Positions 1,193-50,640 of a stretch of 64,000 bases of DNA are shown here, piece by piece (position 1 is the stretch's first letter; each line of letters opens with the position of its first letter). The position numbers and the translations under genes were made by a program. The stretch is from a virus, in IMG/VR virus record IMGVR_UViG_3300024259_002152, positions 286,867-350,866 of that record, one strand, 5' to 3'. Below the pieces are notes generated by a model. That model saw only the letters and a list, made by a program, of their open reading frames with translations, was not told where the DNA came from and did not search any database.

Positions 1193-1981
1193 ATGATAGG
1201 TTCCATAATAGGCGATGTAATTGGTTCTCCTTATGAGGGGAGAAGGATGAATTTCTTTGATTATGATTTCCCTCTCTTTAATGAAAGATCTACATTTACA
1301 GATGATACTATACTAACTGTTGCTACAGCTAAAGCTATACTTGAAGATATTCCTTACAAAGATGTTTATCTTGAGTTTGGTAGAAAGTATAAACGTAAGG
1401 GTTATGGTGGAGCTTTTGAAGCATGGTTATGTTCTGATGATCCTCAACCTTATGATAGTTGGGGAAATGGTTCTGCTATGAGGGTGGGCCCTATAGGTTT
1501 TTATTTTGACGAAGATGATGAAATCTTAAAAGAAGCAAAAGCAAGTTCAGAAGTAACTCATAATCATCCACATGGAATAGACGGTGCTCAAGCAATAGCT
1601 TTAGCTATTCATCATGCTAAAATAGGAGACAGCAAAGAACAGATAAAAAAAATTGTTTTTGCTGTGACTGGTTATTATGATTTGAATAAAACTGTAGATG
1701 ATTATAGAAAGAATTATAAGTTTGATACTAGTTGTAAAGTAACTGTTCCCCAAGCATTAACTGCCTTCTTTGAATCTGATAGTTTTGAAGATTGTATTAG
1801 AAAGGCAGTTTTAATGGGGGGAGATACAGATACGCTGGCGTGTATAGCAGGGTCAGTAGCAGAAGCATATTATAAGATTATTCCTAATAATATTAGCATG
1901 AAAGCTTTAGAAAAACTACCTGTAGAATTTTCAATTATAATAAATCGTTTTTATAGGGAAGTTTTAGAAGGAAATATATGA
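1193..1981 (+). CDS. ADP-ribosylglycohydrolase (ARH/DraG family)
   Basis: N-terminal GSIIGDVIGSPYE, C-terminal GGDTDTLACIAGSVAEAYY signature of ARH family. Confidence 0.75.
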   Translation: MIGSIIGDVIGSPYEGRRMNFFDYDFPLFNERSTFTDDTILTVATAKAILEDIPYKDVYLEFGRKYKRKGYGGAFEAWLCSDDPQPYDSWGNGSAMRVGPIGFYFDEDDEILKEAKASSEVTHNHPHGIDGAQAIALAIHHAKIGDSKEQIKKIVFAVTGYYDLNKTVDDYRKNYKFDTSCKVTVPQALTAFFESDSFEDCIRKAVLMGGDTDTLACIAGSVAEAYYKIIPNNISMKALEKLPVEFSIIINRFYREVLEGNI

Positions 1982-2673
1982 TGCTGATTACTGTCATTGC
2001 AGATATGCATGGAAATTTGAAGTTTAAAGTTCCAGAAACGGATTTGCTTTTGATAGCGGGAGATATATGTCCAGCTTCTCATGATCGTTATATATCTATT
2101 GGTATGCAAAGAACATGGTTGGAAAACAAATTTAAAAAATGGATTTATGAACAACCTGTTGATCATGCTATTGCTATAGCTGGAAACCATTGTTGGATAT
2201 GGGAATGTGCTGAAAGTGAAGTTCCTATATGGTTTCCTAAAAATTGTGTCGATAAAGAAATGGTGGAGGATAATAAGATTGAATATATAGAGGACTTTTT
2301 AGTTTTCTATAAGGATTTAAAAATATATGGGACTCCTGTTCAGCTTTCTTTTAATAATTGGGCTTTTAATCGGGAAGAAGAATCACTACAAAAGTATTGG
2401 GATAATATCCCTGAAGGACTAGATATACTTCTTCTACATAGTCCTCCATATGGAATATTAGACCAAACTCATCATCCTAAATATCCTTCTAAGCGTATAG
2501 GTAGTAAAAGTTTGTTAAAAAGAATAAAACAGGTTAAACCTAAACTGGTAGTTTTTGGTCATAATCATGGAGACCATGGGGTGGTTGAAGAAGATGGTAT
2601 TAAGTATATTAATGCTTCTTTAATTGACGAGCATTATAAAATGGTAAGAAAACCGATTGTTATAGAAATATAA
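1978..2673 (+). CDS. calcineurin-like metallophosphoesterase
   Basis: DMHGN, GDI, GNHC, LLLHSPP, GHNHG motifs; start overlaps upstream stop. Confidence 0.7.
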   Translation: MMLITVIADMHGNLKFKVPETDLLLIAGDICPASHDRYISIGMQRTWLENKFKKWIYEQPVDHAIAIAGNHCWIWECAESEVPIWFPKNCVDKEMVEDNKIEYIEDFLVFYKDLKIYGTPVQLSFNNWAFNREEESLQKYWDNIPEGLDILLLHSPPYGILDQTHHPKYPSKRIGSKSLLKRIKQVKPKLVVFGHNHGDHGVVEEDGIKYINASLIDEHYKMVRKPIVIEI

Positions 2674-2754
2674 CACTTAAAGGATATTTATAGGTATTTT
2701 AAGAATTATAATAATTATAGATATTTGATTTTACTAGGATTATAAAAAAGACAA

Positions 2755-5535
2755 ATGAGAATAGCTGATATATACCAGACTGTAGCTGATAATATAAATA
2801 GCGCTCAGGATAGAGGTGGGGATATAGTGTCTTATGTTGATCAGATGATGACAGACATTAATGATTCTGAGATACCTACTAATGACACAAACAAGAAAAC
2901 ACTAGAAAGTCAAATTAATGCGACTTCCCACCTTCTCATTTTAAAGAATAATACCTATACTGTTGAAGTGCTAAATTTTGTCCGAGAGTTACAAAAATAT
3001 GTAACGGAAGAGTATGGTTCAATAAATACTTTTTTAAGAGATCATGGCATACTAGTGGGAGTTACTTTTGCTGATATATCTAAAACTGTAGGATATCCAA
3101 TCGATGCAGATAATATCGTTGTAGATTATGGGTGCGATTTTTATGTGTCTAATAGTGGTAATGATTCAAATGATGGACGCACTGCGGCAACCGCATGGGC
3201 TACTCTTGATAAAGTTAGTAGCGTTCTTACTGATGCTACATTGAGTGTGGATAATGCAATTAGTGCTGGTGATATTGTTGGTTTTCGTACAGATGATATT
3301 TTTGTTGGAACATTAGATACTTCTGAAGTTGACGGTAGTTCTGGAAATCCTATTACTTTTACTTCATATGGGACGGGAAATAAACCAGTAATTACTGGTA
3401 AGATTACTTTAGGAGATAATTGGGTTCATCATTCTGGTAATATTTGGAGATATGATGTTTCATCTTTGTCTGCCACTCATGTTAGATATTTATTGTTGGA
3501 TGGTGTCGATCAAACAATGTCTCAATCAGAAGTGGGATATGCAGACAATGCGACATATAGTTCTTTCCAAGACTATAATTTAAGCTTTAATCCAAGCTTT
3601 AATCCTAGTGTAGATCCCGATTATAATCCTAGCGATTATGACAGTATTTATGTGGGTGCTGAAGTATTGATGAGAACAACAATTTTTACATGGGATATAC
3701 GAACTGTTACAGATTATGATCCTTATTCGGGGACAATATGTTTTGCACCAACTGTAAGTTATATTCTGGGAACAACAGGATCTTCTAAGGGGGGTTATTT
3801 CTTTCAGAATTCTTTATATATTTTGGAACAAAATGAGATTCAGGGGGAATGGGTAAATGAAGGTGATTATATTTATTATTATTCAATAACTGATCCTTAT
3901 GATTTAGGAACCATTGAAGTAAGTTCAGTAGATACTTTAATGGAAATTGAAAATTCAGAATATATAACTGTTAATAATCTAAAGTTTATGTATGCTAATG
4001 ATTATGCCATATTAGGGGATGGAGCCAATTATAAAAATATAAATAATTGTCATTTTGAGCAATGTAACACTGGTATTTTTGAGGCAATCACAGGTTCATC
4101 AAATTCAATAATAGATAATAATATTTTTACAGATATGGGTAGCATTGCTATTCATCAACGTGATTCAGTTGATGTGACAATTACAAATAATACTATTACT
4201 AATATCGGTTTGACAATTGGCAGGATGGCTTATGTAGAAGATTCTAATACTTGGAATCCTAATATGTGGTATTCGGGTATACATTGTATAGATGCGTCAG
4301 GAGGATTGATTAAATATAATAATATTACAAATGTTGGTTATATAGGATTTAATTTCACCAGACCTACCGATCAAGTGCTTATACAATATAACTATATGAA
4401 AAATCCTTGTTTTTTACTCGTCGATGGTGGATCATTTTATTCTTATAGTAATGCTCAACCTACTGTAACTTCAAATATTAATCAAATAACCTATAGAAAT
4501 AATATTGCCGAGTATGATGATTATGATAATGTAGATCGTTTGATTGGACTTGAAGGTTCTACTTATGAGGAAAGTTCTGCCGGAGTTGTTGGTCTATTTA
4601 AAGATGGATATCTAAGAGCTGCTAATTATTATGATAATTTTGCATTTGGTTTTTTCTTTGCTATTAGAAGCAATGCTTCGATGTATTCTGTGTGGTCAGG
4701 AAATATTGGAGTAGATAAATATTACATTTCTGGAACTGCTAGATCTTTTTATATGGCTGATGCGGCTTCAGTATTTTGGGTTAATAATATTTGTGAAAAT
4801 AATGTTTTTGTTTCTAATTATGTAGGTAGTTCTAGAGTGGGTTTGGTATATGATGATCAATTAATTGCTGCTAGTGGCAATTCATTTGATTATAATAAGA
4901 TGTTAAATCCATTTACTATACTTCCAGAACGTATTTCTACTTTGCCAAGCTTCAACTATTTAACAATAGAAGAATGGAAAGCATATGATGCAGTAGGACC
5001 TCATGAAACTTCTAATGTATTTTTGTATTCTATATCTGGACTATCTTCTGAGTCCGAATTTATCTGGTATGCTACTAATCCTACAAAATCAACAGTTAGT
5101 GTCAGTTTCCCTGCTGGCTATCGTTACTATACTGTTGATGGAGACGCAGTTACAAGTGATACCCTATCTTTATATGAAGGTAAGGTTTATTACAGGACTA
5201 TAGATGAAGGAATGCCTCAGGCTAGTAGTGTTACTATAAGTGAAAATATAAGCGCTAATCCTTCTAGCGGTGGAGTTTATGATGCTTCTTATGATTATAA
5301 CCATGCCGAAGGGAATACTGAATCAGGTTCTACTTATCAGTGGTATCGTTCAATAGATGGGACTGTTGAAGCGAGAGTAACAATTTCAGGTGCGAATAGC
5401 TTATCATATGACACAACTAGTATGGATATCGATCAATATGTCTTATTTGGTGTGACACCAAAATCTGCTGCTGGAGCGGGAAGTTTAGTTACCGGAGTGG
5501 AAAGATTTAGCAATACCATGTCTGTAGTTTGGTAA
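2755..5535 (+). CDS. tail fibre/tailspike with right-handed beta-helix (pectate-lyase-like) domain
   Basis: 926 aa; SGNDSNDGRTAATAW start of beta-helix, many NNIxxN/IGxxG repeats, Gly/Ser-rich termini. Confidence 0.6.
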   Translation: MRIADIYQTVADNINSAQDRGGDIVSYVDQMMTDINDSEIPTNDTNKKTLESQINATSHLLILKNNTYTVEVLNFVRELQKYVTEEYGSINTFLRDHGILVGVTFADISKTVGYPIDADNIVVDYGCDFYVSNSGNDSNDGRTAATAWATLDKVSSVLTDATLSVDNAISAGDIVGFRTDDIFVGTLDTSEVDGSSGNPITFTSYGTGNKPVITGKITLGDNWVHHSGNIWRYDVSSLSATHVRYLLLDGVDQTMSQSEVGYADNATYSSFQDYNLSFNPSFNPSVDPDYNPSDYDSIYVGAEVLMRTTIFTWDIRTVTDYDPYSGTICFAPTVSYILGTTGSSKGGYFFQNSLYILEQNEIQGEWVNEGDYIYYYSITDPYDLGTIEVSSVDTLMEIENSEYITVNNLKFMYANDYAILGDGANYKNINNCHFEQCNTGIFEAITGSSNSIIDNNIFTDMGSIAIHQRDSVDVTITNNTITNIGLTIGRMAYVEDSNTWNPNMWYSGIHCIDASGGLIKYNNITNVGYIGFNFTRPTDQVLIQYNYMKNPCFLLVDGGSFYSYSNAQPTVTSNINQITYRNNIAEYDDYDNVDRLIGLEGSTYEESSAGVVGLFKDGYLRAANYYDNFAFGFFFAIRSNASMYSVWSGNIGVDKYYISGTARSFYMADAASVFWVNNICENNVFVSNYVGSSRVGLVYDDQLIAASGNSFDYNKMLNPFTILPERISTLPSFNYLTIEEWKAYDAVGPHETSNVFLYSISGLSSESEFIWYATNPTKSTVSVSFPAGYRYYTVDGDAVTSDTLSLYEGKVYYRTIDEGMPQASSVTISENISANPSSGGVYDASYDYNHAEGNTESGSTYQWYRSIDGTVEARVTISGANSLSYDTTSMDIDQYVLFGVTPKSAAGAGSLVTGVERFSNTMSVVW

Positions 5536-8259: not shown

Positions 8260-9327
8260 ATGAAAATAGAAGATGTTGGTAATAGCTCTTTTAAATGTAA
8301 ATTATTGTTAGGGAATGCTAAAAATGTTTTGCAAGATATCCCTGAAAATACTTTTCATATGGCAGTGACAAGTCCTCCTTATTGGGACCAAAGAGACTAT
8401 AACGTAGATGGTCAATTAGGTCAAGAAAATAGCCCTGAAGAGTATGTAGAGAATTTAGTCGCTATCTGTAGAGAAGTAAGAAGAGTTATTAGGGAAGATG
8501 GCACTTTTTGGCTTAATATCGGAGACGGTTATTGTAAGAAAACTATTAAATCTTCAAATCTTAAACAAAAAGATTTAGTAGGTATACCGTGGATGGTTGC
8601 GTTTGCTCTTAGGCAAGATGGGTGGTATTTACGAAGTGATATTATTTGGAAAAAAACAAATCCTATGCCCGAGAGTGTAAGAACAAGACCTTCTAAATCT
8701 TATGAACATTTATTTCTTTTCTCCAAATCGGAAAATTATTTCTATGATGCAGAAGCTATAGCAGAGCCACAGAAAGAGATTTCTGTTAAAAGAGCTTATT
8801 CTAAAAATAGAGTAGAAAAGAGAAAAGATTATCAAAATGATAATTATGCTATTAGTGGTAAGTCCCAAGATAAAACATATAGAAAGATGAGAAAAATATT
8901 AGACGAGATGGGAGAAGATGAGGTCATCACGTGTAATAAAAAAGATGTTTGGGAAATAGCTACTGCCGACAATAAGGTTAAACATTTTGCCATCTATCCA
9001 AGAGAATTAGTTAAGCCTTGCATTTTGGCAGGTAGTTCTTCGAAAGGTTGTTGTCCAAAATGCCAATCTCCATGGATTATGGAAAAGGGAAAAAATTGGG
9101 AACCAAGTTGTAATTGTGGAGAAACAGAAGTAAAAGAATGTATTGTTCTAGATCCTTTCAATGGGTCAGGAACTACAGGAATGATATGTAGAGAATATGG
9201 TAGAAAGTATGTAGGAATAGATATTAGTGAGGAATATTTATCTTATGCAAGAGATGCTTTGATAGGAGAGAGGAGAGCAGAAATGGCAGAAGAAGTAGAT
9301 TCTATTCAACAACTTAAAGTTTTGTAA
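8260..9327 (+). CDS. DNA methyltransferase, beta-class (N6-adenine or N4-cytosine)
   Basis: Motif IV VTSPPYW precedes motif I LDPFNGSGTTG; Cys-cluster insertion. Confidence 0.75.
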   Translation: MKIEDVGNSSFKCKLLLGNAKNVLQDIPENTFHMAVTSPPYWDQRDYNVDGQLGQENSPEEYVENLVAICREVRRVIREDGTFWLNIGDGYCKKTIKSSNLKQKDLVGIPWMVAFALRQDGWYLRSDIIWKKTNPMPESVRTRPSKSYEHLFLFSKSENYFYDAEAIAEPQKEISVKRAYSKNRVEKRKDYQNDNYAISGKSQDKTYRKMRKILDEMGEDEVITCNKKDVWEIATADNKVKHFAIYPRELVKPCILAGSSSKGCCPKCQSPWIMEKGKNWEPSCNCGETEVKECIVLDPFNGSGTTGMICREYGRKYVGIDISEEYLSYARDALIGERRAEMAEEVDSIQQLKVL

Positions 9328-9368
9328 AATAAGAACTTACAGAAATCTTACAATTTAGGAGTGAAAAA

Positions 9369-9410
9369 TTCCAGACAACGCTTTTCTTAAAATTATAGCA
9401 TAGAAAGTGT
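9369..9410 (+). promoter_or_regulatory. promoter box + -10 TATAGCAT + AGAAAGTGTG box
   Basis: TTCCAGACAACGCTTTTCTTAAAATTATAGCATAGAAAGTGTG. Confidence 0.55.
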
Positions 9411-9446
9411 GTTTTTGAAGAAAGTATAGATATAGAAAGGGCTGTT

Positions 9447-10136
9447 ATGGTAGTTAAATTGACTCATCCATTTTTGATGGAATGTATTGATCCTAAGGGT
9501 CTTTTAAGGAATAACCTTAAAAGCAAATCTATGACATTCTCCATGTTTTCTGGCCGACTTAGAAAGCAAGCTACAAAGTATGCGACAGGTGGGGATGGTA
9601 AAGTAAACGAAGATAAAGAAAATAAATACAAAGGTAATGGGTTTGAGTTATTCTGTGAGATATTTGTAAGAATATTTGGTTTTGATATGCTGGTTTCAAT
9701 AAATCCCGATTCTTATGAAATAGTTGCTGATGGTGATGATACAGGAGTTGATGGAATAGGAATAGGTAACAATGGAAAAATTCATACCTTACAAGCCAAG
9801 TTTTGTATCGGCACAGAAGAATTAACAGCTAATAGGCAACATCTTACAAATTTCACTTCTGCATCTATGCTTAGGTATAATGTTAATAAAGATGAAGTAT
9901 GCAATCTTAATAGGCCTGGGATAAAAAGTAAAATTAATATGACGATCATGCATACTGGTAAGGGTATTAATCATTATACTGAGAATGATATGCTTTGTGG
10001 GCTTATCAGAGAGATAGGTTTAAAGGATATCAAAAATAAAGTAGATGGTAATAATATTTTTTGGGAATGTTTTAGGAAATCATGGGACAAACATCTTACA
10101 GAACTTATGAAGAAAAAGAGAAATGATGAAAAATAG
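9447..10136 (+). CDS. Mrr-like PD-(D/E)xK restriction-endonuclease-fold protein
   Basis: GNGFELFCEIF...DGDDTGVDGIGI...TLQAKF resembles Mrr_cat D-(E/Q)xK core. Confidence 0.4.
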   Translation: MVVKLTHPFLMECIDPKGLLRNNLKSKSMTFSMFSGRLRKQATKYATGGDGKVNEDKENKYKGNGFELFCEIFVRIFGFDMLVSINPDSYEIVADGDDTGVDGIGIGNNGKIHTLQAKFCIGTEELTANRQHLTNFTSASMLRYNVNKDEVCNLNRPGIKSKINMTIMHTGKGINHYTENDMLCGLIREIGLKDIKNKVDGNNIFWECFRKSWDKHLTELMKKKRNDEK

Positions 10137-11877
10137 ATATTTGTATCCATATCAAGAATTGCTTATTGAAAAAAGTTTAGACCCATCTATGGAAAAAGGC
10201 AGAATAATATTACCTACTGCTTCTGGTAAGGGTGTTATTTGCAGAGATATCATACGCAGAATGATTATATCTTCTGAAAATAAACTCAATCAGTTTCTGG
10301 GGGCTATTTTCACTCCTCGTCTTCTTTTAAATAAACAGTGGACAAATGATTGTAGGGAATATTTTGAAAAAATAGATAGACCTTATAATTTTGCTCTTGT
10401 TGGTTCTTTAGGATTTAATAAGGAAGAAGCGATATCTATTGAAGAGGCGTTATATTTCATATCAGGAGTTGGGGTTGATGCTCCCTGTCATGCTAAAACA
10501 GCTAAAGATTTAAAAGAGTTTGTAGAAAGCAACAGGACAAAAGGTGTTAATACAATTGTAATTTCTACTTATCACTCTAATAGAATTGTTAGAGCCTCAG
10601 GACTGGTTTTTGATTGTGCTGTGTATGATGAAGCTCACTACCTGCCTGGCAGAGAGCCTCAGGCAGGAGCTACAAGAGCTATTGATGAATTGTTTGAAGC
10701 AACAGAAGTGTTAACAAAGAAAAAAATATTTACTACTGCTACAGAAAAACTTGGAGATGATCTGTTTGATATTGAAGAGGATAATATAGAGTATAATGGC
10801 AGAGGTATGGAAAATGAAGATATTTATGGTGCTGAGATATTTGGATGGATAGATAAAAAAACAGGACGACATAGACGTGTTTCTCCAAGAGATTTAATTG
10901 AATTCGGCTCAATATTGGAACCTAGAGTTTATGTTATTACAGATAATGACATAGACAAATATGAGCTTGATAGTCTTAGCGATGTTCCTAAAATAACTCC
11001 TGATCAGCCTCTGGGGCAACGTCAGGCAGAAGAAGTAGCTAAGGTTACTTTTATATCTTTTGAGGGCCATAAAAAAGAACTTAAAAAAGAGTCTGATTTT
11101 CCTGAGAAAATTGGGGCTAAGATGATGGTTGTTTGTGATGGTTTTAAAGAACTCGAGGGAATTAGAAACTCAAAAGAACTGCAAAATTTTAGGAGTAAAA
11201 ATCCTAAGGTGAAATTATATTTTATTAGTTCTGATTCTGATGGAGGCATATATATTCATGGGCAAGAAAAACAAAATTACAGTAATAAATCTAAAAAAGA
11301 TTTTTTAGATGCTCTGAATAATTTGAGTTCTGAAGAAGATGCTATAATTTACCATATTGATATCCTTACTTGCGGAATTGATGTCCCTTCATTAACAGGT
11401 GTTTTATTCTTTAAAGAATGCAAGTTAATAAAATTGCTTCAAAATATAGGTAGGGGTTCAAGACTTCATATCGAAGATAGAATAAGATGGGAAAATGGAG
11501 AGATCGAACCTGGAGGAAAAGGGTATATTAAACCTAGTTTTCATGTTTTACTCCCAATACTCAAACAGGACACTGAAGATTTTGTTAATAAATTTGTCAA
11601 AATAATAAATAGAATGAGGGATAATTATGGTTTTAAGGCTTATGAATTCTTACATATTGGGGCCACCAAAGAGCCTGGTGGAAAAGTGCCTATTGAAATT
11701 GCTGGACTAAAAACTCCTTTAAGTCAACTGAAAGATAAAGCTGGTAGAGTCTATTATGAGTGGATAGAAGATAAAAGGATTAAAAGAGAAGAAAGAAAAA
11801 TACAGGAAGAGATAGATAATCTTAAAAGATGGGTAGAGAATGGAGAATGGGATAAAATTGCAGAATATAAGAAATAA
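10123..11877 (+). CDS. SF2 DEAH-box helicase (HsdR/Res-like)
   Basis: PTASGKG (motif I), VYDEAHYL (DEAH), QNIGRGSRLH (motif VI); overlaps upstream nuclease ORF by 14 nt. Confidence 0.65.
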   Translation: MMKNRYLYPYQELLIEKSLDPSMEKGRIILPTASGKGVICRDIIRRMIISSENKLNQFLGAIFTPRLLLNKQWTNDCREYFEKIDRPYNFALVGSLGFNKEEAISIEEALYFISGVGVDAPCHAKTAKDLKEFVESNRTKGVNTIVISTYHSNRIVRASGLVFDCAVYDEAHYLPGREPQAGATRAIDELFEATEVLTKKKIFTTATEKLGDDLFDIEEDNIEYNGRGMENEDIYGAEIFGWIDKKTGRHRRVSPRDLIEFGSILEPRVYVITDNDIDKYELDSLSDVPKITPDQPLGQRQAEEVAKVTFISFEGHKKELKKESDFPEKIGAKMMVVCDGFKELEGIRNSKELQNFRSKNPKVKLYFISSDSDGGIYIHGQEKQNYSNKSKKDFLDALNNLSSEEDAIIYHIDILTCGIDVPSLTGVLFFKECKLIKLLQNIGRGSRLHIEDRIRWENGEIEPGGKGYIKPSFHVLLPILKQDTEDFVNKFVKIINRMRDNYGFKAYEFLHIGATKEPGGKVPIEIAGLKTPLSQLKDKAGRVYYEWIEDKRIKREERKIQEEIDNLKRWVENGEWDKIAEYKK

Positions 11878-11945
11878 CTCTTTCCAGGCGATGAGATTTT
11901 CAGTTTAGTAAAGTGTAAATGATGTTATAAATATAAGGAAGCAAG

Positions 11946-13133
11946 ATGGAGCTTACTGAAAAGTTAAAGAAAGAAGCTGTAAGGGGACTTATTAAAGAGA
12001 TATGCAAAGAAGATGGCTCTATACAAAATGTCCATACTCCTTATTCTCTTTGTGAAGATATAATAGAAAAGGCAGTTGATTATATTGAAGATTTAGAGAA
12101 TAAAAGTATTCTTGTTATGTTTAACCTTGAATTTATTGATAGTCTTATTGACTTGGGTATAGATCCTAAGAATATAACTTTTATGTCAGATTCAGAACAA
12201 AGAAGAGGTTTGGCAGAAAATTTTTATGAAGTTGAAGCTATTGAATTTAAATTATCAGATTTAAATGGAGATAATATAATGGGTAAACAATTCGACCATG
12301 TGATTGGTAATCCTCCTTATCATAAAAAAGGAAATGAAAAAGACACAAAGACGCAAGCGATATGGCCATCATTTGTTGATTTGTCTTTACAGTATTGTAA
12401 GGATGATGGGCATTTGTGTTTTGTGCATCCATCAGGGTGGAGAGGAAATGGAATGTATAAAAAAATAGGTAGGTTGATGAAATCAAAGCAGATAGAATAT
12501 TTAGAAATTCATGATGAAAAAGATGGGATGAAAGTATTCGATGCTGAGACAAGATATGATTGGTATGTTTTGCAAAATAAATATAATGAAGATGTTACCG
12601 AAATTAAAGACCAAATAGGGAAAATCTCTAAAATAAATATAAGAGACATGGAGATAATTCCTAATTTTAACATTATAGATGTTCAGAATCTCATTGCTAA
12701 AGATGGGGAGGAAAAGGTTACCGTTCTGTCAGATTCTACATATCATACTCAATCTGGTGTTAAAAAAGGGTTTATGAGCGAAACAGAAACAAAGACACAT
12801 AAATATCCGTGTGTGTATGTGGTTAACTCTGTGGGAGAAATGCAATTATGGTATTCTTCTGTAAAAAAAGGACATTTTGGGACAACCAAGCTTATATTTT
12901 CTAATGGCAGAATATCTTCTGCTAATTATTTTGTAGATCAAAATGGAGAATACGGTTTGACTCAATTTTCTTATGGGATTATAGACAGTATCGAGAATTT
13001 GAGAGATATATATAAAGCAATGAGAACTAAAGAATTTAAAAATTTAATGGAGGCATGTTCGATAGGAATGCTTACTATTAATAAAGATGTTTTAAAAACA
13101 TTCCGTAAAGATTTTTGGAAGGAGTTTGTATAA
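11946..13133 (+). CDS. N6-adenine methyltransferase-like protein (NPPY, no clear motif I)
   Basis: VHTPYSL (motif X-like), FDHVIGNPPY (motif IV), LCFVHPSGW. Confidence 0.5.
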   Translation: MELTEKLKKEAVRGLIKEICKEDGSIQNVHTPYSLCEDIIEKAVDYIEDLENKSILVMFNLEFIDSLIDLGIDPKNITFMSDSEQRRGLAENFYEVEAIEFKLSDLNGDNIMGKQFDHVIGNPPYHKKGNEKDTKTQAIWPSFVDLSLQYCKDDGHLCFVHPSGWRGNGMYKKIGRLMKSKQIEYLEIHDEKDGMKVFDAETRYDWYVLQNKYNEDVTEIKDQIGKISKINIRDMEIIPNFNIIDVQNLIAKDGEEKVTVLSDSTYHTQSGVKKGFMSETETKTHKYPCVYVVNSVGEMQLWYSSVKKGHFGTTKLIFSNGRISSANYFVDQNGEYGLTQFSYGIIDSIENLRDIYKAMRTKEFKNLMEACSIGMLTINKDVLKTFRKDFWKEFV

Positions 13134-13738
13134 TGGTGAAAGAAATAACAAATACAGAACAAGTTTTAAAGAATGAGGAAAGAAGAAAAAAAGAGCAGAA
13201 GCAAACCGCAGAAGTATTCACACCTGATTCATTAGTGAATGAAATGTTAGATAAATTGCCTGAGGAATCGTGGAAAGAGAGGAAAACTTTTATAGACCCT
13301 GCTTGTGGTAATGGTAATTTTTTAGTTCATATATTAAATAGAAAATTAAAAAGAGGCCATGATTCAGTTGGAGCTTTAAAATCTATTTATGGGCTTGATA
13401 TTGAACAGAGTAATATTTTTGAATGTAGATTAAGACTTTTAAAAATTGTTAGTTTGCAAGAAGAACTAACTGAAGAACATCTTAAAGCAGTTACTATAAA
13501 TATTAAATATTTAAATAGTAAAAAGTGGCCTAATGGTTCTCTTGACTATGATATGGAATTTAGAAATAATGCTAATCTTCAAACTATTAAAGAATGGTTA
13601 GAAGATATTAAAAAAAATGGTCTCGATCATGTGGCTATACCTGATAATATTGAATACACTATCGCAACCCCAGCTTTGGAAAATGGGAAAATATCAAACA
13701 GGAATGTAGAAAGTATTGATATGTTTGGAGATGATTAA
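13133..13738 (+). CDS. methyltransferase N-terminal-domain-like protein (motif X/I, no motif IV)
   Basis: EVFTPDSLV...FIDPACGNGNFL (motif I), GLDIEQ; ATG at 13133 behind GGAAGGAG; TAATG overlap with upstream gene. Confidence 0.5.
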   Translation: MVKEITNTEQVLKNEERRKKEQKQTAEVFTPDSLVNEMLDKLPEESWKERKTFIDPACGNGNFLVHILNRKLKRGHDSVGALKSIYGLDIEQSNIFECRLRLLKIVSLQEELTEEHLKAVTINIKYLNSKKWPNGSLDYDMEFRNNANLQTIKEWLEDIKKNGLDHVAIPDNIEYTIATPALENGKISNRNVESIDMFGDD

Positions 13739-15420: not shown

Positions 15421-15657
15421 ATGACATGGAAATCTATAAAAGGTGTAAAACCCCCTTCTTTGAAAAGAGTATGGATATCCTATTATATAGATGGGATTTT
15501 AACTAAACAATATCAAACTTATGCTAAAGCTGTAGGAAAAGATCCTCATGGAGATATTTTTTGGCATGATTTTATGACTGGCAAAGTTCTTGATAATAGT
15601 AGAATTACAGTGTCTCATTGGATGGCAATTCCTGATAATCCAATTCTTAATTTATGA
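15421..15657 (+). CDS. hypothetical protein
   Basis: 78-aa ORF. Confidence 0.4.
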   Translation: MTWKSIKGVKPPSLKRVWISYYIDGILTKQYQTYAKAVGKDPHGDIFWHDFMTGKVLDNSRITVSHWMAIPDNPILNL

Positions 15658-16988
15658 TGATTAGTAGTCGTAACTCACAATATTTTTTTGAAAGGTTTGG
15701 TATCATGGCGAAGAGTAGTAAATCACGTAGGAAAAAAGGCGGGTCTGCCCCTGTAACTCCTAGGCAGACAATTGTTCACGAAATCTCTCAAGCAACTAAT
15801 GAGACAATCGTTCCCGAAAAAATGAGAACCCCAAAAATCTCTCATTTTTTTATCGATGTCGTGAAGAAAGTTCAAAAAGGGGTGGCTTATTATTCGGGGG
15901 ATATGAGTTTGGCTGAGTTAGCAGCTTTGACTCATGTGGATAATTACGATGGGGAGTGTGCGGATGTGGCAGGTAAGGGTCAAAGAGCATTGTGCGAAAC
16001 GAGAGGTAAGCAATTTATGAATTTTATTGCTGACCGAGACAATCTATGTTTTATGGAGATCCTTCTTAATGAACGTGAAAAAGAGATAACATTCACGTCT
16101 CTAAAACAAATGGGAATTTCTGTTCCTCAATATGACAAATTGTCAGCTATGCATGGGGTTCTTGAGATTCCTATTTCTGTTAGATTGTATGTCTATGATG
16201 GGCAAACAAGACGGTTTGGTTATTTAAGTTTGCTTCATTTTGATCTAGACATGTTGGGAACAGATGCTTATAAGAGTTTTAAACATATGAGAGTTCCTTT
16301 CTGTTTATGTCAGGTATCTGCTGGTCAAGAAACAACTTTGTTTCTTCATCACAATAAGCAAACTTCAGTGCCTAATGATCATAAGGCAATGGTTTCTTGG
16401 CATGCAAATAAATCATCAAGTCAGGTAAAGACTGATAGTTATTCCGAGAAAACACGTTCCGTCATTGCTGGTATGACATTCATGATGGATAGAGATAGAA
16501 CTAATCCATGGTATGGAAGAATTGGTATGCCCGATCTTCCTAAGGAAGAAAATAAGCTACGCTTGGGAACACAGGGCAGCTTTAATACAGGACTGAAACG
16601 TTTTGTTGGATGGTTGAATAACCAATATTGGAGTCCTGAAACTTCTTACGAGGAAAAGAGTCAGGACTTGAAAGAAATATGCACCGTATTCTGGAGATCA
16701 GTGCAAAAAGTTTGCCCCAAGATATGGAGAACTCCTGAAGATTATATTCAGTTAAAATCTTTTGGAATTGCAACTTTAAGTTTGCTGATGCATACTCTGT
16801 ATATCGATTTTTTCGATAGAGATATCGAATGGACTATTGATAACATTCATAAGCATTTGAAGAAGAGTAAAATTATTACAACTCCTAAAATGTGGGAATG
16901 TGGCGGAGAACTCTCCAAAAGGGGAGGTAATTACAAATCTCTTCAATCTCTTGAGCGGGATATATATGACCAGATCAGAAGGAATTAG
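15654..16988 (+). CDS. DGQHR-like (DndB/ParB-fold) domain protein, putative
   Basis: VYDGQTRRFGY resembles DGQHR/DGQQR motif of DndB-like proteins; 444 aa. Confidence 0.35.
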   Translation: MMISSRNSQYFFERFGIMAKSSKSRRKKGGSAPVTPRQTIVHEISQATNETIVPEKMRTPKISHFFIDVVKKVQKGVAYYSGDMSLAELAALTHVDNYDGECADVAGKGQRALCETRGKQFMNFIADRDNLCFMEILLNEREKEITFTSLKQMGISVPQYDKLSAMHGVLEIPISVRLYVYDGQTRRFGYLSLLHFDLDMLGTDAYKSFKHMRVPFCLCQVSAGQETTLFLHHNKQTSVPNDHKAMVSWHANKSSSQVKTDSYSEKTRSVIAGMTFMMDRDRTNPWYGRIGMPDLPKEENKLRLGTQGSFNTGLKRFVGWLNNQYWSPETSYEEKSQDLKEICTVFWRSVQKVCPKIWRTPEDYIQLKSFGIATLSLLMHTLYIDFFDRDIEWTIDNIHKHLKKSKIITTPKMWECGGELSKRGGNYKSLQSLERDIYDQIRRN

Positions 16989-46948: not shown

Positions 46949-47455
46949 ATGCATAGAAGACTTCCAATAGGAAAACTAATAGGAGGATCTATTTATGTTC
47001 ATAGGGACTATGTAGATCGTGTAGTTCCTGGGGATATTTTCCGAGAAGCGAAGAAAATTGGACATATTAAAGATTTTCATGAATGGTATCCTCAATGGAC
47101 AATAGTCAAATGGAACAAATATAAAGAGATGGTCTCATTTGTTTATTGTCCTTATTTTGATAGACAATTTGAGCCAGGGATTCATCATGTAGTTACTGTT
47201 GATTTAAGGACTAGGACTAGTCAAATAAGGTGTTATAGGGGTATTAAGAATCGTCCTATTTATCATTATAAATGGCTTATGGTTGGTGTTGGTTATAGGA
47301 AATTTCAAGTAAGTCAATGTATGATGAGGAGTTATGAGATTGAAAGAGTTCTAAAGAAATACAATATTAATAGATCAAAAATTGGTTATAGGAGATATTG
47401 GGATGATGTAGTTATTCCTTTAATTCAGAAAGAGAGGATTCCAGATGGTAGATAA
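46949..47455 (+). CDS. hypothetical protein
   Basis: 168-aa ORF. Confidence 0.4.
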   Translation: MHRRLPIGKLIGGSIYVHRDYVDRVVPGDIFREAKKIGHIKDFHEWYPQWTIVKWNKYKEMVSFVYCPYFDRQFEPGIHHVVTVDLRTRTSQIRCYRGIKNRPIYHYKWLMVGVGYRKFQVSQCMMRSYEIERVLKKYNINRSKIGYRRYWDDVVIPLIQKERIPDGR

Positions 47456-47690
47456 AGAATCAAAGATGATAAATACTATGTTAGTATATAGTATTAAGTG
47501 TTTTAAGTGTGGAATTCTTGAGGAAGAGATGGTAAAAGCAGGTCCAATAAAGTTTTGTAAGAAATGTTTTGGGGAAGAGTTTAAGGATTGTGTATCTCCG
47601 AAAGGACAGATATATTCTGGCTCTAAGGTATATAAAGAATGGATAGGTAAATATAGAATGCATATGAATGCATTAACTCATGATAGATAA
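47445..47690 (+). CDS. zinc-ribbon protein
   Basis: CFKCG...CKKCF. Confidence 0.35.
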   Translation: MVDKESKMINTMLVYSIKCFKCGILEEEMVKAGPIKFCKKCFGEEFKDCVSPKGQIYSGSKVYKEWIGKYRMHMNALTHDR

Positions 47691-47717
47691 ATGTAAACCT
47701 TTTGTTGTAGGAGAATT

Positions 47718-47897
47718 ATGATGGCTATGGATCATTATGGTAACACGGTAGATGTAGGTGACACTGTAAGAAAGGTCGGTTACAGTGATGAGTATACTGT
47801 AATTGATACAGAGTATGGAGGAGAAATGCTCAGTTTGAGTGGGGAGAATTGGGTAGAAAATAATGTTCGTGTTCAGGATGTGATGAAAATAGGTTAA
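47718..47897 (+). CDS. hypothetical small protein
   Basis: 59-aa ORF behind GGAG. Confidence 0.3.
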   Translation: MMAMDHYGNTVDVGDTVRKVGYSDEYTVIDTEYGGEMLSLSGENWVENNVRVQDVMKIG

Positions 47898-47912
47898 TTT
47901 AAGCGGGTGTAA

Positions 47913-47983
47913 TCTCCATAAGTGTATTGGTCGCACGTGACCCTTCCAAGGTTGAAGGCTCAGTTCGATTCTGAGATGGAGAA
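47913..47983 (+). tRNA. tRNA-Gly(TCC)
   Basis: loop CTTCCAA. Confidence 0.65.
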
Positions 47984-48074
47984 TTTATTTTGGCTATATG
48001 CAAAAATAAATAAAGGTATATAGCATGTTTCTCCGAATATATTAATAGTTAATGATATATTTTGGAGAAATAAA

Positions 48075-48659
48075 ATGAGAAAAAGAACAAGTCCAATATG
48101 GACAATATCTAAAGATAAGCTAGAAAGGATTGTTAAAAATAGTGATAGTCTCGCTAAAGTCTTAAAACAAATTAATTTAGATCCATATGGTAGCGGTAGC
48201 CGTTATCGATCTTTGAAAGAAAGATTAAAAATAGATAGTATTGATTACTCTCATATACGGTTGGGATCTTTCTCTAATAGTGGTAGAAATTTTGATAGTA
48301 AGGCAATTTCTTTAAAAGAAATTATGGTGGAAAATTCTACTTATAGTAGAAATCATCTTAAGCGAAGACTACTAGAAAATAATATATTAGAAAATTGTTG
48401 TGCCATATGTGGTCAAGAACCCACTTGGAAAAATATAAAATTAGTAATGGTGTTAGATCATATTAATGGTGTTAGAAATGATAACAGATTAGAGAATTTG
48501 AGATTATTATGTCCTAATTGCAATAGTCAACAGAAAACTTTTGCAGGAAAATGTAATAAGAGACCTCTTCCTGTATGCAAAAATTGCGGTAAAGAGGTAT
48601 CTAGAAGATCAAAAACTAAATTATGTAAAAATTGTTATGTAAATAGGAGAATAACATGA
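48075..48659 (+). CDS. HNH homing endonuclease
   Basis: LDHINGVRNDNRLENLRLLCPNCN. Confidence 0.7.
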   Translation: MRKRTSPIWTISKDKLERIVKNSDSLAKVLKQINLDPYGSGSRYRSLKERLKIDSIDYSHIRLGSFSNSGRNFDSKAISLKEIMVENSTYSRNHLKRRLLENNILENCCAICGQEPTWKNIKLVMVLDHINGVRNDNRLENLRLLCPNCNSQQKTFAGKCNKRPLPVCKNCGKEVSRRSKTKLCKNCYVNRRIT

Positions 48660-48862
48660 TAATTACTCTTGATGAAAATACGATGATAAATACTAATTTC
48701 ATACAATATGTGGATAAAAAAGATGATCAAACAGTTGTTATAACAATGGCAGATAGTAAGAGATATGAAAAAAAAGAAACAATGGAACAGGTTAAAAAAT
48801 GGTTATTACATTATGAACAACATCCCCCTGTTACTCATAATATAAAGATAGTTGATAAATAA
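48656..48862 (+). CDS. hypothetical protein
   Basis: 68-aa ORF. Confidence 0.35.
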   Translation: MIITLDENTMINTNFIQYVDKKDDQTVVITMADSKRYEKKETMEQVKKWLLHYEQHPPVTHNIKIVDK

Positions 48863-48870
48863 GATTTTTT

Positions 48871-48942
48871 GCAGCTATGGTATAACGGATATTACGTGAC
48901 CTTGCCAAGGTCAAAATGTGAGTTCGATTCTCACTAGTTGCT
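48871..48942 (+). tRNA. tRNA-Gly(GCC)
   Basis: loop TTGCCAA. Confidence 0.7.
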
Positions 48943-48947
48943 TACAA

Positions 48948-49021
48948 GCCCAGGTAGCCCAAATGGCAGAGGCACATGCCTTAGGAGCATGGTGATGGTG
49001 GTTCGAATCCACTTCTGGGTA
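48948..49021 (+). tRNA. tRNA-Leu(TAG), type-I-like (short variable arm)
   Basis: loop CTTAGGA; 11-nt D loop. Confidence 0.5.
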
Positions 49022-49067
49022 TTTATTAGTGTTTTAGAAATAAGTAGCACCGAATCGGAGTAATATT

Positions 49068-49304
49068 ATGGATGTTGTAATGCTTTTACTTAGTACTCTT
49101 TCTATTATAATTGGTATATATTGTATAATAGTGAGTTTTGTTCCAATTTTAGGTATTGCTTGGGGTTTTGTACCATCTATTATTGGAATAGTATTAGGAG
49201 CTATTGCTGGTAGTACAGCAGGAGTAGTTCTCAATATAATAGCTATTGTTATTATGATTGTTTGGAATCTTATTTGTATTTTGTTTTTAGCTAAGAATGG
49301 TTAA
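49068..49304 (+). CDS. small membrane protein
   Basis: three TM helices. Confidence 0.4.
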   Translation: MDVVMLLLSTLSIIIGIYCIIVSFVPILGIAWGFVPSIIGIVLGAIAGSTAGVVLNIIAIVIMIVWNLICILFLAKNG

Positions 49305-49318
49305 AAAAACTGTTTTTT

Positions 49319-49393
49319 ACTCCTGTAGCTCAATTGGATTAGAGCATCTCCCTTCTAAGGAGAAAGTTAGGGGTTCGAGTCCTCTCAGGAGTG
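49319..49393 (+). tRNA. tRNA-Arg(TCT)
   Basis: loop CTTCTAA. Confidence 0.7.
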
Positions 49394-49603
49394 TTTTTCT
49401 CTATTTTTCACTTTTCCCGAAAAATATAAATCTTTATTACAAAGGAAGTTATAGAGAATTTTTAATATTTATAACAGGAAAATAGTGAATTTACTTGATT
49501 ATTCTTTCACTTTTGACTATATTATACATAGTCATATGACAAGTGTAGTAGTTAGTAAATGTTAACCTAAGTAGTATGTGGCAGAGCCACGGAGGTAACA
49601 ACA

Positions 49604-50026: not shown

Positions 50027-50051
50027 AAATCTAAAAACATTTAAGTTTTTA

Positions 50052-50094
50052 ATGCCCAGTCTTCTTAGGAAACAGGATGATTGGGCATTTTTTT
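50052..50094 (+). terminator. rho-independent terminator
   Basis: ATGCCCAGTC-17 nt-GATTGGGCAT-T7. Confidence 0.6.
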
Positions 50095-50126
50095 ATACTT
50101 TTTTCCTAAAATTGGGAAAAAAAGAC

Positions 50127-50154
50127 TTGCAAAAGTAGGGAAAGTGTGTAGAAT
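50127..50154 (+). promoter_or_regulatory. sigma70-type promoter TTGCAA-N16-TAGAAT
   Basis: hexamers. Confidence 0.5.
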
Positions 50155-50165
50155 ACTGGGGTCAT

Positions 50166-50557: not shown

Positions 50558-50560
50558 TAA

Positions 50561-50635: not shown

Positions 50636-50640
50636 TTGCT

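What the first reader, a model, noticed from the sequence alone, without database searches (positions are those of the whole stretch)
8260..13738. Restriction-modification-like cluster with split nuclease/helicase and complementary MTase fragments
- Five co-oriented genes make up the cluster: a beta-class SPPY MTase, an Mrr-like PD-(D/E)xK protein whose stop overlaps the start of a DEAH SF2 helicase (together resembling an HsdR/Res subunit split into two ORFs), an NPPY protein lacking a glycine-rich motif I, and a TAATG-coupled ORF carrying motif X/I (FTP...DPACGNGNFL) but no motif IV.
- The last two proteins look like one adenine MTase encoded as two polypeptides in permuted order.
- A phage-borne R-M-like or anti-restriction-modification locus of this architecture is unusual. 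It may modify phage DNA, exclude competitors, or degrade host DNA.
Basis: partly seen in the sequence, partly recalled or inferred. Interest (0 to 1): 0.7.

Follow-up and report, generated by a model that had tools for sequence, protein, structure and literature searches.

The report
Split Type ISP-like restriction-modification module in phage
A giant-phage genome carries a four-gene cassette that looks like a single-chain restriction-modification motor (nuclease, DNA translocase, adenine methylase) cut into separate proteins. The methylase has lost its cofactor-binding loop, and an extra small protein next to it consists of only that cofactor-binding half.

Summary
All five ORFs and the stated motifs are present at the given coordinates.

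**What each gene is**
- P3 (10123-11877) is an SF2 ATPase. Its closest solved relatives are LlaGI and LlaBIII (E about 1e-32; next family 5e-13).
- P4 (11946-13133) is not a fragment. It has a complete M.TaqI-like fold with an invariant NPPY, but motif I is deleted or replaced (GNGNF becomes FNLEF).
- P5 (13133-13738) is a free-standing N-terminal (AdoMet-binding) half with motifs X, I, II and III. It is coupled to P4 by a TAATG overlap and an AAGGAG ribosome-binding site.

**Conservation**
- P2-P3-P4-P5 recurs as a cassette in at least 10 lineages, mostly huge phages. Gene order is sometimes shuffled and flanking genes differ.
- Free N-half genes track methylases that lack motif I in cis: 34 of 44, against 4 of 53 for methylases with motif I.
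- Cassettes whose methylase keeps motif I have no N-half gene.
- P1, the beta-class SPPY methylase, is not part of the conserved module.

**Verdict**
This is a virus-specific, multi-subunit variant of a Type ISP restriction-modification enzyme with a probable trans-acting AdoMet-binding subunit. How P4 and P5 assemble, and what the cassette does for the phage, are inferred and not shown.

The parts
9447..10136 (+). P2: stand-alone Mrr-family PD-(D/E)xK nuclease, 229 aa. Motif I is F66-E67 (nt 9642-9647), motif II is D98-T-G-V-D102 (nt 9738-9752), motif III is Q116-A-K118 (nt 9792-9800).
10123..11877 (+). P3: SF2 helicase-like ATPase or translocase, 584 aa. Walker A is P31-K36 (nt 10213-10230), DEAH is 169-172 (nt 10627-10638), with TAT at 205-207 and a Q440/G443/R444/R447 motif VI. 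The C-terminal part (about aa 450-584) has no recognised domain and could be a coupler equivalent.
   Evidence: It matches Pfam ResIII at 1.2e-6 and PADLOC REase_MTase_IIG profile positions 187-594 of 1646. A profile of 10 homologues hits LlaGI 5ffj at 1.7e-32 and LlaBIII 4xqk at 2.5e-32 (residues 174-450). The next family, XPB, scores 5e-13, and an HsdR (3h1t) scores 2.5e-11.
10123..10136 (+). 14-nt overlap between the P2 stop and the P3 start (ATGATGAAAAATAG). This is translational coupling, not a programmed frameshift.
   Evidence: P3 is in the +1 frame relative to P2, and the P3 frame has a stop at 10108-10110. Relatives show overlaps of 4-73 nt, a 1-nt or 24-nt spacer, or non-adjacent genes.
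11946..13133 (+). P4: M.TaqI-like gamma-class adenine-methylase fold plus target-recognition domain, 395 aa. Motif IV N122-P-P-Y125 is invariant (nt 12309-12320). Motif I is degenerate, F59-N-L-E-F63 (nt 12120-12134), with a 3-residue loop deletion.
   Evidence: Pfam Eco57I matches aa 91-193 to profile positions 63-166 of 171. The AlphaFold model has pLDDT 93.5 and a full Rossmann fold: beta1 55-58, beta2 77-81, beta3 97-100, beta4 116-121. Foldseek top hits are M.TaqI, CamA and M.BseCI over the full length. hhalign against free N-halves aligns FNLEF to GNGNF, with PAC deleted. N60 is invariant and E62 nearly invariant in the 46-sequence alignment (the FNLEF pattern is visible across 63 homologues).
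13119..13135 (+). Coupling signal for P5: AAGGAG (13119-13124, inside the conserved W-K-E codons of P4), the TAA stop (13131-13133) and the overlapping ATG (13133-13135).
   Evidence: The same TGGAAGGAG...TAATG or TGATG junction occurs in L002, L004, L006, L024, L034, L038, L050, L052, L067 and L076.
13133..13738 (+). P5: free-standing AdoMet-binding N-half of a gamma-class methylase, 201 aa. Motif X is E27-V-F-T-P31 (nt 13211-13225), motif I is D55-PACGNGN-F63 (nt 13295-13321), motif II is Y-G-L-D, and the motif III region is N-I..L..SLDY. There is an acidic C-terminal tail and no motif IV.
   Evidence: Pfam N6_Mtase matches aa 19-101 to profile positions 19-96 of 311. Residues 17-115 align to the N-halves of intact family members. 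G59 and G61 are invariant in 40 homologues. The family has 3295 cluster representatives, mostly 100-250 aa stand-alone proteins.
8260..9327 (+). P1: beta-class SPPY amino-methylase (N4-C or N6-A). It is an adjacent gene and not part of the conserved module.
   Evidence: It matches PF01555 at 1e-45 and PADLOC MTase_II at 7.6e-91. No P1 homologue lies within +/-8 kb of any other module copy.

Best explanation
Genes 9447-13738 encode a virus-borne, multi-subunit version of a Type ISP restriction-modification enzyme.

**Proposed roles**
- P4 recognises a DNA target through its M.TaqI-like recognition domain and flips the target adenine into its NPPY pocket.
- P3 is an ATP-driven dsDNA translocase.
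- P2 is the Mrr-type nuclease that cuts DNA after translocation.
- P4 has lost its own AdoMet-binding loop. Methylation, and so protection of the phage's own DNA, is proposed to depend on P5. P5 is a separately translated AdoMet-binding half-domain made in step with P4 through the TAATG overlap.

**Shown**
- The homology and fold of each part.
- Conservation of the catalytic residues.
- Conservation of the four genes as a mobile cassette.
- The statistical link between loss of motif I in cis and presence of a free N-half gene.

**Inferred**
- That the four proteins assemble.
- That P5 supplies AdoMet to the P4 active site. The geometry is unknown, because P4's own degenerate N-half occupies the canonical position in the model.
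- That the biological role is cleavage of unmodified DNA (rival phage or host) while the phage genome is protected.
For: **Match to Type ISP enzymes**
- The P2 profile and the P2 model both pick the LlaBIII nuclease domain as closest solved relative. P2 carries the LlaGI Mrr motifs.
- The P3 profile hits LlaGI and LlaBIII at about 1e-32, roughly 20 orders of magnitude better than any other family. The hit lies directly after the region matched by P2 (LlaBIII 9-98, then 174-450).
- Type ISP domain order is nuclease, helicase, coupler, methylase, recognition domain (PMC4666363). This equals the gene order P2-P3-P4.

**Methylase parts**
- P4 has a full-length M.TaqI-like fold with an invariant NPPY.
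- P4's motif I is replaced by FNLEF with a loop deletion.
- P5 keeps invariant motifs X and I.

**Conservation as a cassette**
- The cassette is found in L003, L005, L006, L021, L024, L031 and L088. Order is permuted in L010/L011 and L034, and the genes are dispersed in L090/L092. Only these four genes are shared with the window.

**Link between motif I loss and a free N-half gene**
- A free N-half gene lies next to 34 of 44 methylases lacking motif I in cis, against 4 of 53 with motif I (Fisher p = 1e-12). Most of the exceptions sit at contig or locus ends.
- Natural control: cassettes L049, L095 and L093 have a methylase with intact motif I plus P2 (and P3 in L049 and L095; L093 is cut off after P2), and no N-half gene.
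- One phage lineage (L051, L063, L027, L017) always has the trailing N-half, while its cis motif I ranges from intact to degenerate.

**Natural fusions**
- P0152 is a P5-like N-half followed by a P4-like C-half in canonical order.
- P0196, P0214 and Aeromonas phage AS-zj gp176 have the C-half and recognition domain followed by the N-half.
- L005, L031 and L021 fuse a degenerate P2-like domain to the helicase.
Against: - There are no biochemical data.
- AlphaFold places P4's own degenerate N-half confidently in the canonical position. Simple fold complementation by P5 is therefore sterically not obvious for P4, unlike for relatives that start at NPPY.
- P4 keeps a motif X-like HTP and a conserved D82 at the end of beta2 (invariant in the 9 cassette sequences). 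Some non-canonical AdoMet binding by P4 alone cannot be excluded.
- P4's methylase and recognition domain resemble M.TaqI, CamA and BseCI more than the LlaGI methylase; no Type ISP entry is in the Foldseek top 50.
- No coupler domain could be recognised.
- Four methylases with intact motif I still have a trailing N-half.
- P5-like domains are also fused to complete beta-class methylases (P0140, P0149). The N-half can therefore exist next to self-sufficient enzymes.
- The family is almost absent from cellular genomes, so a classical host-defence role does not apply.
Confidence: 0.6

Rival explanations
1. P4 and P5 are functionally independent. P4 would be either a self-sufficient methylase with a non-canonical cofactor site, or a catalytically dead DNA-recognition and base-flipping module for the P2-P3 motor. 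P5 would be an autonomous small AdoMet-binding protein: a regulator or sensor, or the partner of NPPY-only half-methylases encoded elsewhere in the roughly 350-kb genome.
For: - P4 has a complete, confidently predicted fold with its own N-half in place.
- P5-like domains occur fused to complete beta-class methylases and trail some methylases with intact motif I.
- NPPY-only proteins outnumber N-halves in some loci (L003, L026, L042), so an N-half can serve proteins other than its upstream neighbour.
Against: - Every motif-I-less P4-type protein with sequence available downstream has a P5-type gene beside it, usually with a stop-start overlap.
- Cassettes with intact motif I lack the N-half gene.
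- NPPY is invariant in 46 P4-type proteins, which argues against a dead domain.
- No NPPY-only ORF or second N-half exists in the 64-kb window.
Confidence: 0.2
2. The cassette is an anti-restriction or DNA-protection device rather than a restriction system. A translocating methylase, as proposed for DarB-type helicase-methylase proteins of phages, would rapidly modify the phage genome. The nuclease would serve another purpose, such as processing or host DNA breakdown.
For: - The family is essentially viral. Only 6 loci were found in representative genomes of 185,579 species, all on MAG contigs.
- Related methylase C-halves are fused to other helicases in 1250-1690-aa proteins of huge phages and giant-virus MAGs.
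- DarB of phage P1 is described in the literature as a helicase and methylase anti-restriction protein (papers listed).
Against: - The P2 catalytic residues are invariant.
- P2 and P3 are specifically closest to a bona fide restriction enzyme.
- The large viral helicase-methylase fusions do not match the P2 or P3 profiles.
- The cassette moves between unrelated genomes as a unit, as restriction-modification systems do.
Confidence: 0.15
3. The split genes are a decaying, frameshifted remnant of a single-chain enzyme, or assembly errors, with no function.
For: Adjacent ORFs overlap, which superficially resembles frameshift breaks.
Against: - The same ORF boundaries occur in at least 10 lineages at 35-63% identity, with invariant catalytic residues in all four proteins.
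- Gene order is permuted in some lineages.
- The SD-TAATG junction is conserved.
- P5 sits after the recognition domain, not where a frameshift in a gamma-class gene would leave it.
Confidence: 0.03

Closest known systems
[quoted passage not shown]
   Same: - The order of functions is the same: Mrr-family nuclease, SF2 translocase, gamma-class NPPY adenine methylase, recognition domain.
- P2 and P3 have these enzymes as their closest solved relatives.
- The Mrr motif signature is identical: F-E, D-x-G-V-D, then Q-x-K with the same 14-residue spacing.
   Different: - The module has four polypeptides instead of one.
- No coupler domain is recognisable.
- The methylase and recognition part is closer to M.TaqI, CamA and BseCI.
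- Methylase motif I is lost in cis, and an extra AdoMet-binding half-protein is encoded downstream.
- The module is carried by phages, not by bacterial plasmids or chromosomes.
M.TaqI (gamma-class N6-adenine methyltransferase; PDB 2adm, 1g38)
   Same: P4 superposes over its full length (catalytic Rossmann domain plus C-terminal recognition domain). Motif order is X, I-VIII, then the recognition domain, with an NPPY motif IV.
   Different: P4 lacks the glycine-rich motif I loop (FNLEF with a 3-residue deletion). It is always accompanied by a separate protein carrying motifs X and I-III.
Type I HsdR and Type III Res subunits
   Same: Both combine a PD-(D/E)xK nuclease with an SF2 motor. HsdR also has the nuclease at the N-terminus.
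   Different: - The HsdR match is much weaker (3h1t, 2.5e-11, partial) than the LlaGI match (1.7e-32).
- The P2 nuclease is of the Mrr Q-x-K type.
- Res carries its nuclease at the C-terminus (established knowledge, not tested here).
Naturally split or circularly permuted DNA methylases: M.AquI alpha/beta, M.BssHII, beta-class amino-methylases, and the permuted M.EcoKI-like Dam enzymes noted in jumbo phages
   Same: - There is precedent for a methylase made of two polypeptides and for permuted motif order (PMC5944983; PMC7824862).
- Fused relatives here (P0196, P0214, AS-zj gp176) have a beta-like order: IV-VIII, recognition domain, X, I-III.
   Different: - The cited natural splits are C5-methylases cut between motif VIII and the recognition domain, i.e. 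between domains.
- Here the cut lies inside the Rossmann fold, between motifs III and IV.
- In P4 a degenerate copy of the detached half is retained.
DarB-type helicase-methylase 'polyvalent' phage proteins
   Same: Both are phage-borne combinations of an SF2 helicase with an Eco57I-type adenine methylase. Many relatives of P4's C-half occur in proteins of this kind, 1250-1690 aa long.
   Different: Those helicases do not match the P3 profile, and the proteins lack a P2-like nuclease. Their proposed role is anti-restriction.

Membership tests
Type ISP restriction-modification enzyme | All activities reside in a single polypeptide. | tested here: not met
   There are four separate ORFs with their own starts. 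They are separate and sometimes reordered in relatives.
Type ISP restriction-modification enzyme | N-terminal Mrr-family nuclease with motifs I (F-E), II (D-x-G-V-D) and III (Q-x-K). | tested here: met
Type ISP restriction-modification enzyme | SF2 helicase-like translocase of the LlaGI type following the nuclease. | tested here: met
   The P3 profile hits LlaGI at 1.7e-32 and LlaBIII at 2.5e-32 (residues 174-450); the next family scores 5e-13. Walker A, DEAH and motifs III and VI are invariant.
Type ISP restriction-modification enzyme | Coupler domain between the motor and the methylase. | tested here: inconclusive
   P3 residues about 450-584 and the P4 N-terminal helix (2-22) match nothing. 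The LlaGI alignment ends at motif VI.
Type ISP restriction-modification enzyme | Gamma-class N6-adenine methylase with functional AdoMet-binding and NPPY motifs, plus a recognition domain. | tested here: inconclusive
   NPPY and the recognition domain are present in P4. Motif I is absent from P4 and present only in P5. Activity was not testable.
Type ISP restriction-modification enzyme | ATP-dependent translocation, cleavage on collision, and hemimethylation of an asymmetric site. | not testable with these tools
   This requires biochemistry and methylome sequencing.
Gamma-class (M.TaqI / Eco57I-family) N6-adenine methyltransferase | Motif order X, I-VIII, then recognition domain, on a Rossmann fold. 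| tested here: met
   The P4 model has beta1-beta4 in the canonical order followed by a recognition domain. Foldseek top hits are M.TaqI, CamA and BseCI.
Gamma-class (M.TaqI / Eco57I-family) N6-adenine methyltransferase | Glycine-rich motif I (D/E-P-x-x-G-x-G-x-F) that binds AdoMet. | tested here: not met
   In P4 both glycines are replaced (FNLEF) and the loop is shortened by 3 residues. The change is conserved in 63 homologues. The motif is met by P5 (DPACGNGNF).
Gamma-class (M.TaqI / Eco57I-family) N6-adenine methyltransferase | Motif IV (N/D)PP(Y/F). | tested here: met
   N122-P-P-Y125 is invariant in the 46-sequence alignment. P5 has no motif IV.
   They align contiguously, but the best match is Type ISP. 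An HsdR (3h1t) matches only part of P3, at 2.5e-11. Pfam ResIII is a generic SF2 N-terminal domain match.
Beta-class amino-methyltransferase (P1) | Motif IV precedes the recognition domain and motif I, with a PF01555 match above threshold. | tested here: met
   SPPY is at aa 38-41 and FNGSGTT at about aa 299-305. PF01555 scores 156.8 bits against a cutoff of 26.7.
Naturally split methylase (two polypeptides forming one enzyme) | Two adjacent genes carry complementary motif sets, and both are needed for activity. | tested here: inconclusive
   The motifs are complementary and the two genes co-occur strongly, and natural fusions exist. However, P4 also retains a degenerate N-half, and the need for both proteins was not testable.

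The most novel reading that the evidence does not exclude
Phages may have turned the AdoMet-binding half of a Rossmann-fold adenine methylase into a detachable, exchangeable subunit.

- One small N-half protein would serve one or several catalytic and recognition proteins. Examples are NPPY-only halves in tandem, as in L003, L026 and L042.
- In this cassette the N-half would act as the switch that decides whether a Type ISP-like motor methylates (protects) or cuts DNA.
- This would be the first natural amino-methylase whose active site is assembled from two polypeptides split between motifs III and IV. It would also be a previously undescribed way of regulating restriction against modification.
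Probability: 0.3. Interest if true: 0.8.

Novelty: new variant of a known kind. Interest (0 to 1): 0.62.

Why it matters
**Type ISP enzymes.** They are known as single-chain bacterial defence enzymes. A conserved multi-subunit version restricted to huge phages would extend the family. It would also show that viruses deploy translocating restriction-modification motors themselves, presumably against rivals or host DNA.

**Split methylases.** The data reveal a large family of stand-alone AdoMet-binding half-methylase proteins (thousands of clusters). These proteins track methylases that have lost motif I. This points to a natural split-enzyme design inside the Rossmann fold.

**Consequences**
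- Genome annotation: half-proteins are currently labelled 'hypothetical' or 'DNA methyltransferase', and at least one fused form is annotated with the wrong start.
- Interpretation of phage methylomes.
- Engineering of split methylases.

**Testability.** Cultured phages carry related arrangements (Klebsiella phage PKO111 gp114/gp115 and Aeromonas phage AS-zj gp176), so the idea can be tested directly.

Tried and rejected
- Megablast of the region against 50,697 phage records gave no match.
- A close-relative scan of viral contigs with P3 alone gave nothing.
- Single-sequence phmmer of P2, P3, P4 and P5 against PDB sequences was uninformative. Only profiles worked.
No complex model could be made.
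- The 256-aa ORF in huge-phage locus L001 (9000-9770) was considered as a P2 homologue. It was rejected because it aligns poorly and lacks the motifs.
- The 1250-1690-aa helicase-methylase proteins of giant-virus MAGs and huge phages were considered as single-chain versions of this module. They were rejected because they match neither the P2 nor the P3 profile.
- Programmed frameshifting at the A-rich P2/P3 overlap was rejected.
- P1 and the downstream DGQHR protein were considered as members of the system. They were rejected because they are not conserved with the cassette.
- A bacterial defence-system identity was tested with PADLOC. Only generic methylase and Type IIG hits appeared, and no named system.


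Full report
**Setting.** The window is part of a very large phage genome.
- All long ORFs are on the + strand and G+C is about 33%.
- A block of 31 tRNA genes lies at 41-51 kb, and many ORFs match phage protein families.
- The exact P2 protein is recorded on a contig of 350,866 bp.
- No nucleotide-level relative exists among 50,697 deposited phages.

**Check of the observation.** The five ORFs are at the stated coordinates.
- P1 (8260-9327) is a beta-class amino-methylase. SPPY is near the N-terminus and FNGSGTT near the C-terminus, and PF01555 matches at 1e-45.
- P2 ends at 10136, 14 nt inside P3, which starts at 10123.
- P4 has NPPY at residues 122-125 and no glycine-rich motif I.
- P5 starts at the ATG of a TAATG overlap, 8 nt after an AAGGAG. 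It carries EVFTP and DPACGNGNF but no motif IV.
- The sequence-level observation is therefore confirmed.

**P2 is an Mrr-type nuclease of the Type ISP kind.** No library family matched it except an unannotated phage family.
- Thirty-five homologues share invariant K62, G63, E67, E71, D98, G100, D102, Q116 and K118.
- These form F-E, D-x-G-V-D and Q-x-K. They are the three Mrr motifs defined in LlaGI, where D74, D78 and K94 are essential and E38 and Q92 are important (PMC2790908). The 14-residue spacing between motifs II and III is the same.
- A 9-sequence profile has the LlaBIII nuclease domain (residues 9-98) as its best PDB hit. The E-value is marginal (0.05), but the alignment runs through these motifs.

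**P3 is the matching motor.** A profile of ten homologues hits LlaGI (1.7e-32) and LlaBIII (2.5e-32, residues 174-450 plus the motif VI region).
- The next families are XPB at about 5e-13 and an HsdR at 2.5e-11.
- Walker A, DEAH, TAT and motif VI residues are invariant.
- P2 followed by P3 therefore reproduces the first roughly 600 residues of a Type ISP enzyme. The published domain order of those enzymes is Mrr nuclease, SF2 ATPase, coupler, methylase, recognition domain (PMC4666363).
- In three relatives (L005, L031, L021) the helicase carries an additional N-terminal P2-like domain that has lost the catalytic residues. This is a natural fusion linking the two folds.
- The P2/P3 overlap is not a frameshift site. 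P3 is in the +1 frame, and that frame is closed by a stop at 10108-10110. In relatives the junction ranges from overlaps of 4-73 nt to a 1-nt or 24-nt spacer, and the two genes are not adjacent in L034 or L090.

**P4 is a whole methylase fold, not a fragment.**
- Pfam sees only the part from motif IV onward (Eco57I, residues 91-193). In several methylase profiles P5 and P4 match adjacent, complementary positions, for example mad2 positions 264-333 and 338-440.
- AlphaFold with 46 sequences gives a confident model (pLDDT 93.5, pTM 0.90) that includes beta1 (55-58), beta2 (77-81) and beta3 (97-100) ahead of beta4 and NPPY.
- Foldseek aligns the model over its full length to M.TaqI, CamA and M.BseCI.
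- Profile-profile comparison shows that the P4 N-terminal region is homologous to free N-halves (E 7e-6). Motif X aligns with motif X. Motif I, DPACGNGNF, is replaced by a shortened ..FNLEF in which both invariant glycines become F and L.
- This altered sequence is itself conserved: the pattern holds across 63 homologues, and in the 46-sequence alignment N60 is invariant and E62 nearly invariant. NPPY remains invariant.

**P5 is a free AdoMet-binding half.**
- Its residues 17-115 align with the N-terminal halves of intact family members whose C-halves are about 50% identical to P4.
- An exhaustive search found 3295 cluster representatives (737 below 1e-10). Nearly all of the best 150 are stand-alone proteins of 100-250 residues.
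- E27, T30, G59 and G61 are invariant in 40 of them.

**Comparative genomics.** The P4 family is large, with 1359 hits, and comes in three forms:
- intact proteins;
- P4-type proteins with a degenerate motif I;
- proteins of about 280 residues that begin at NPPY.

In 86 loci a free N-half gene lies next to 21 of 23 motif-I-less methylases and 13 of 21 NPPY-only proteins. Most of the remaining ones lie at contig or locus ends. Only 4 of 53 methylases with motif I have such a neighbour (Fisher p = 1e-12).

The four genes P2-P3-P4-P5 occur together in the following forms:
- in L003, L005, L006 (a 548-kb phage, 60% identity), L021, L024 and L031;
- in L088/L089, with a different recognition domain;
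- in the order P4-P5-P2-P3 in L010/L011, and P3-P4-P5-P2 in L034;
- dispersed in L090/L092.

Further points from the comparison:
- Only these four genes are shared between the window and those loci, so the unit is a mobile cassette.
- Three cassettes (L049, L095, L093) pair P2 (and P3 in L049 and L095; L093 is cut off after P2) with a methylase that keeps motif I. They have no N-half gene.
- One lineage keeps the trailing N-half while its cis motif I ranges from intact to degenerate.
- The stop-start overlap preceded by TGGAAGGAG is conserved in many loci.
- Fused forms exist in both orders. P0152 is N-half then C-half. P0196, P0214 and Aeromonas phage AS-zj gp176 are C-half and recognition domain then N-half.
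- A scan of representative genomes of 185,579 bacterial and archaeal species found only six relatives, all on MAG contigs and none of the P4 type. Viral collections gave 262. The family is essentially viral.

**Interpretation.** The best-supported reading is a multi-subunit, phage-borne variant of a Type ISP restriction-modification enzyme in which AdoMet binding has been moved to a separate half-domain protein.
- The homology of each part and the cassette conservation are shown.
- Assembly, the way P5 reaches the P4 active site, and the biological role are inferred.
- The main difficulty is structural. In P4 the canonical position of the N-half is already filled by its own degenerate copy. 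Complementation would therefore need displacement or a different interface. This could not be modelled.
- Rivals are listed separately: P4 and P5 act independently; the cassette is a DarB-like anti-restriction device; or the genes are decaying. The last is effectively excluded.

**Comparison with the literature.**
- Natural two-polypeptide methylases and circular permutation are known for C5-methylases. M.AquI is cut between motif VIII and the recognition domain, and M.BssHII is permuted (PMC5944983).
- Circularly permuted M.EcoKI-like Dam enzymes have been noted in jumbo phages, as has the general use of restriction-modification systems by jumbo phages against rivals (PMC7824862).
- Searches found no description of a split Type ISP-like cassette, or of free N-half subunits paired with motif-I-less adenine methylases. 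The literature tool covers open-access papers only, so this is not proof of absence.

**Verdict.** This is a new variant of a known kind. It is of moderate to high interest, because it exposes a widespread viral split-methylase design and a multi-subunit Type ISP relative that can be tested in cultured phages.

Noticed in passing
window 41039-51150: A dense block of 31 tRNA genes on the + strand covers most amino acids. One call (42263-42338) has an abnormal 2-nt anticodon. The block coincides with the local G+C rise to about 41%.
   Followed up: no
window 15654-16988: A 444-aa DGQHR-domain protein lies 1.9 kb downstream of the cassette. It matches TIGR03187 at 1e-22, with weak DndB and DpdB matches. 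No DpdA/TGT-like partner was seen among the neighbours tested, and the protein is not conserved next to the cassette in other phages.
   Followed up: partly
window 8260-9327 (P1 residues about 262-295): The beta-class SPPY methylase carries a cysteine-rich insertion (CCPKC...CNCG...C) between the catalytic region and motif I, possibly a zinc ribbon. P5-like N-halves are fused to P1-like beta-class methylases in other metagenomic proteins (P0140, P0149).
   Followed up: partly
L099 (Aeromonas phage AS-zj, NC_048673) 3132-4288: gp176 is annotated from a GTG start that cuts off motif IV. Starting at the upstream ATG gives MSKLYDYVIMNPPY..., a 384-aa circularly permuted methylase: motif IV onward, recognition domain, then motifs X and I. 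This matches the length of phrog_11371.
   Followed up: yes
L100 (Klebsiella phage PKO111, NC_031095) 2470-4405: A cultured T4-like phage has the same design. gp114 (495 aa) has a LEM-3-like GIY-YIG domain (2.7e-15), a motif-I-less N-half and NPPF. The overlapping gp115 (153 aa) is a free N-half with LEPSAGDGNL.
   Followed up: partly
L003 5651-7362; L026 7986-10098; L042 6730-8837: Tandem NPPY-only half-methylases (two or three in a row) sit beside at most one visible N-half gene. In L042 the order is C-half, N-half, C-half. This suggests that one AdoMet-binding half may serve several catalytic and recognition halves.
   Followed up: partly
L005 7644-8240; L031 5707-6300; L021 2118-2720: In these cassettes the helicase carries an extra N-terminal P2-like domain whose catalytic D, D, Q and K residues are all replaced. 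An intact stand-alone P2 is still encoded upstream.
   Followed up: yes
L007, L014, L018, L013, L001 and many GVMAG loci: Giant-virus MAGs and huge phages encode 1250-1690-aa proteins that join a different SF2 helicase (ResIII in some) to a P4-like methylase C-half. Some lack motif I and are followed by a free N-half (L013, L015, L076; L052 also has one, though a motif-I-like string was found in it; L001 has the N-half just upstream).
   Followed up: partly
window 1193-2673: An ADP-ribosylglycohydrolase (1.2e-38) is followed by an overlapping calcineurin-like metallophosphoesterase. A 926-aa beta-helix protein lies at 2755-5535.
   Followed up: no
window 58404-60610: A polymerase-like ORF (phrog_23333, 1.7e-46) is followed directly by a LAGLIDADG homing-endonuclease ORF. 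A related locus, L002, also has a LAGLIDADG gene near the cassette.
   Followed up: no
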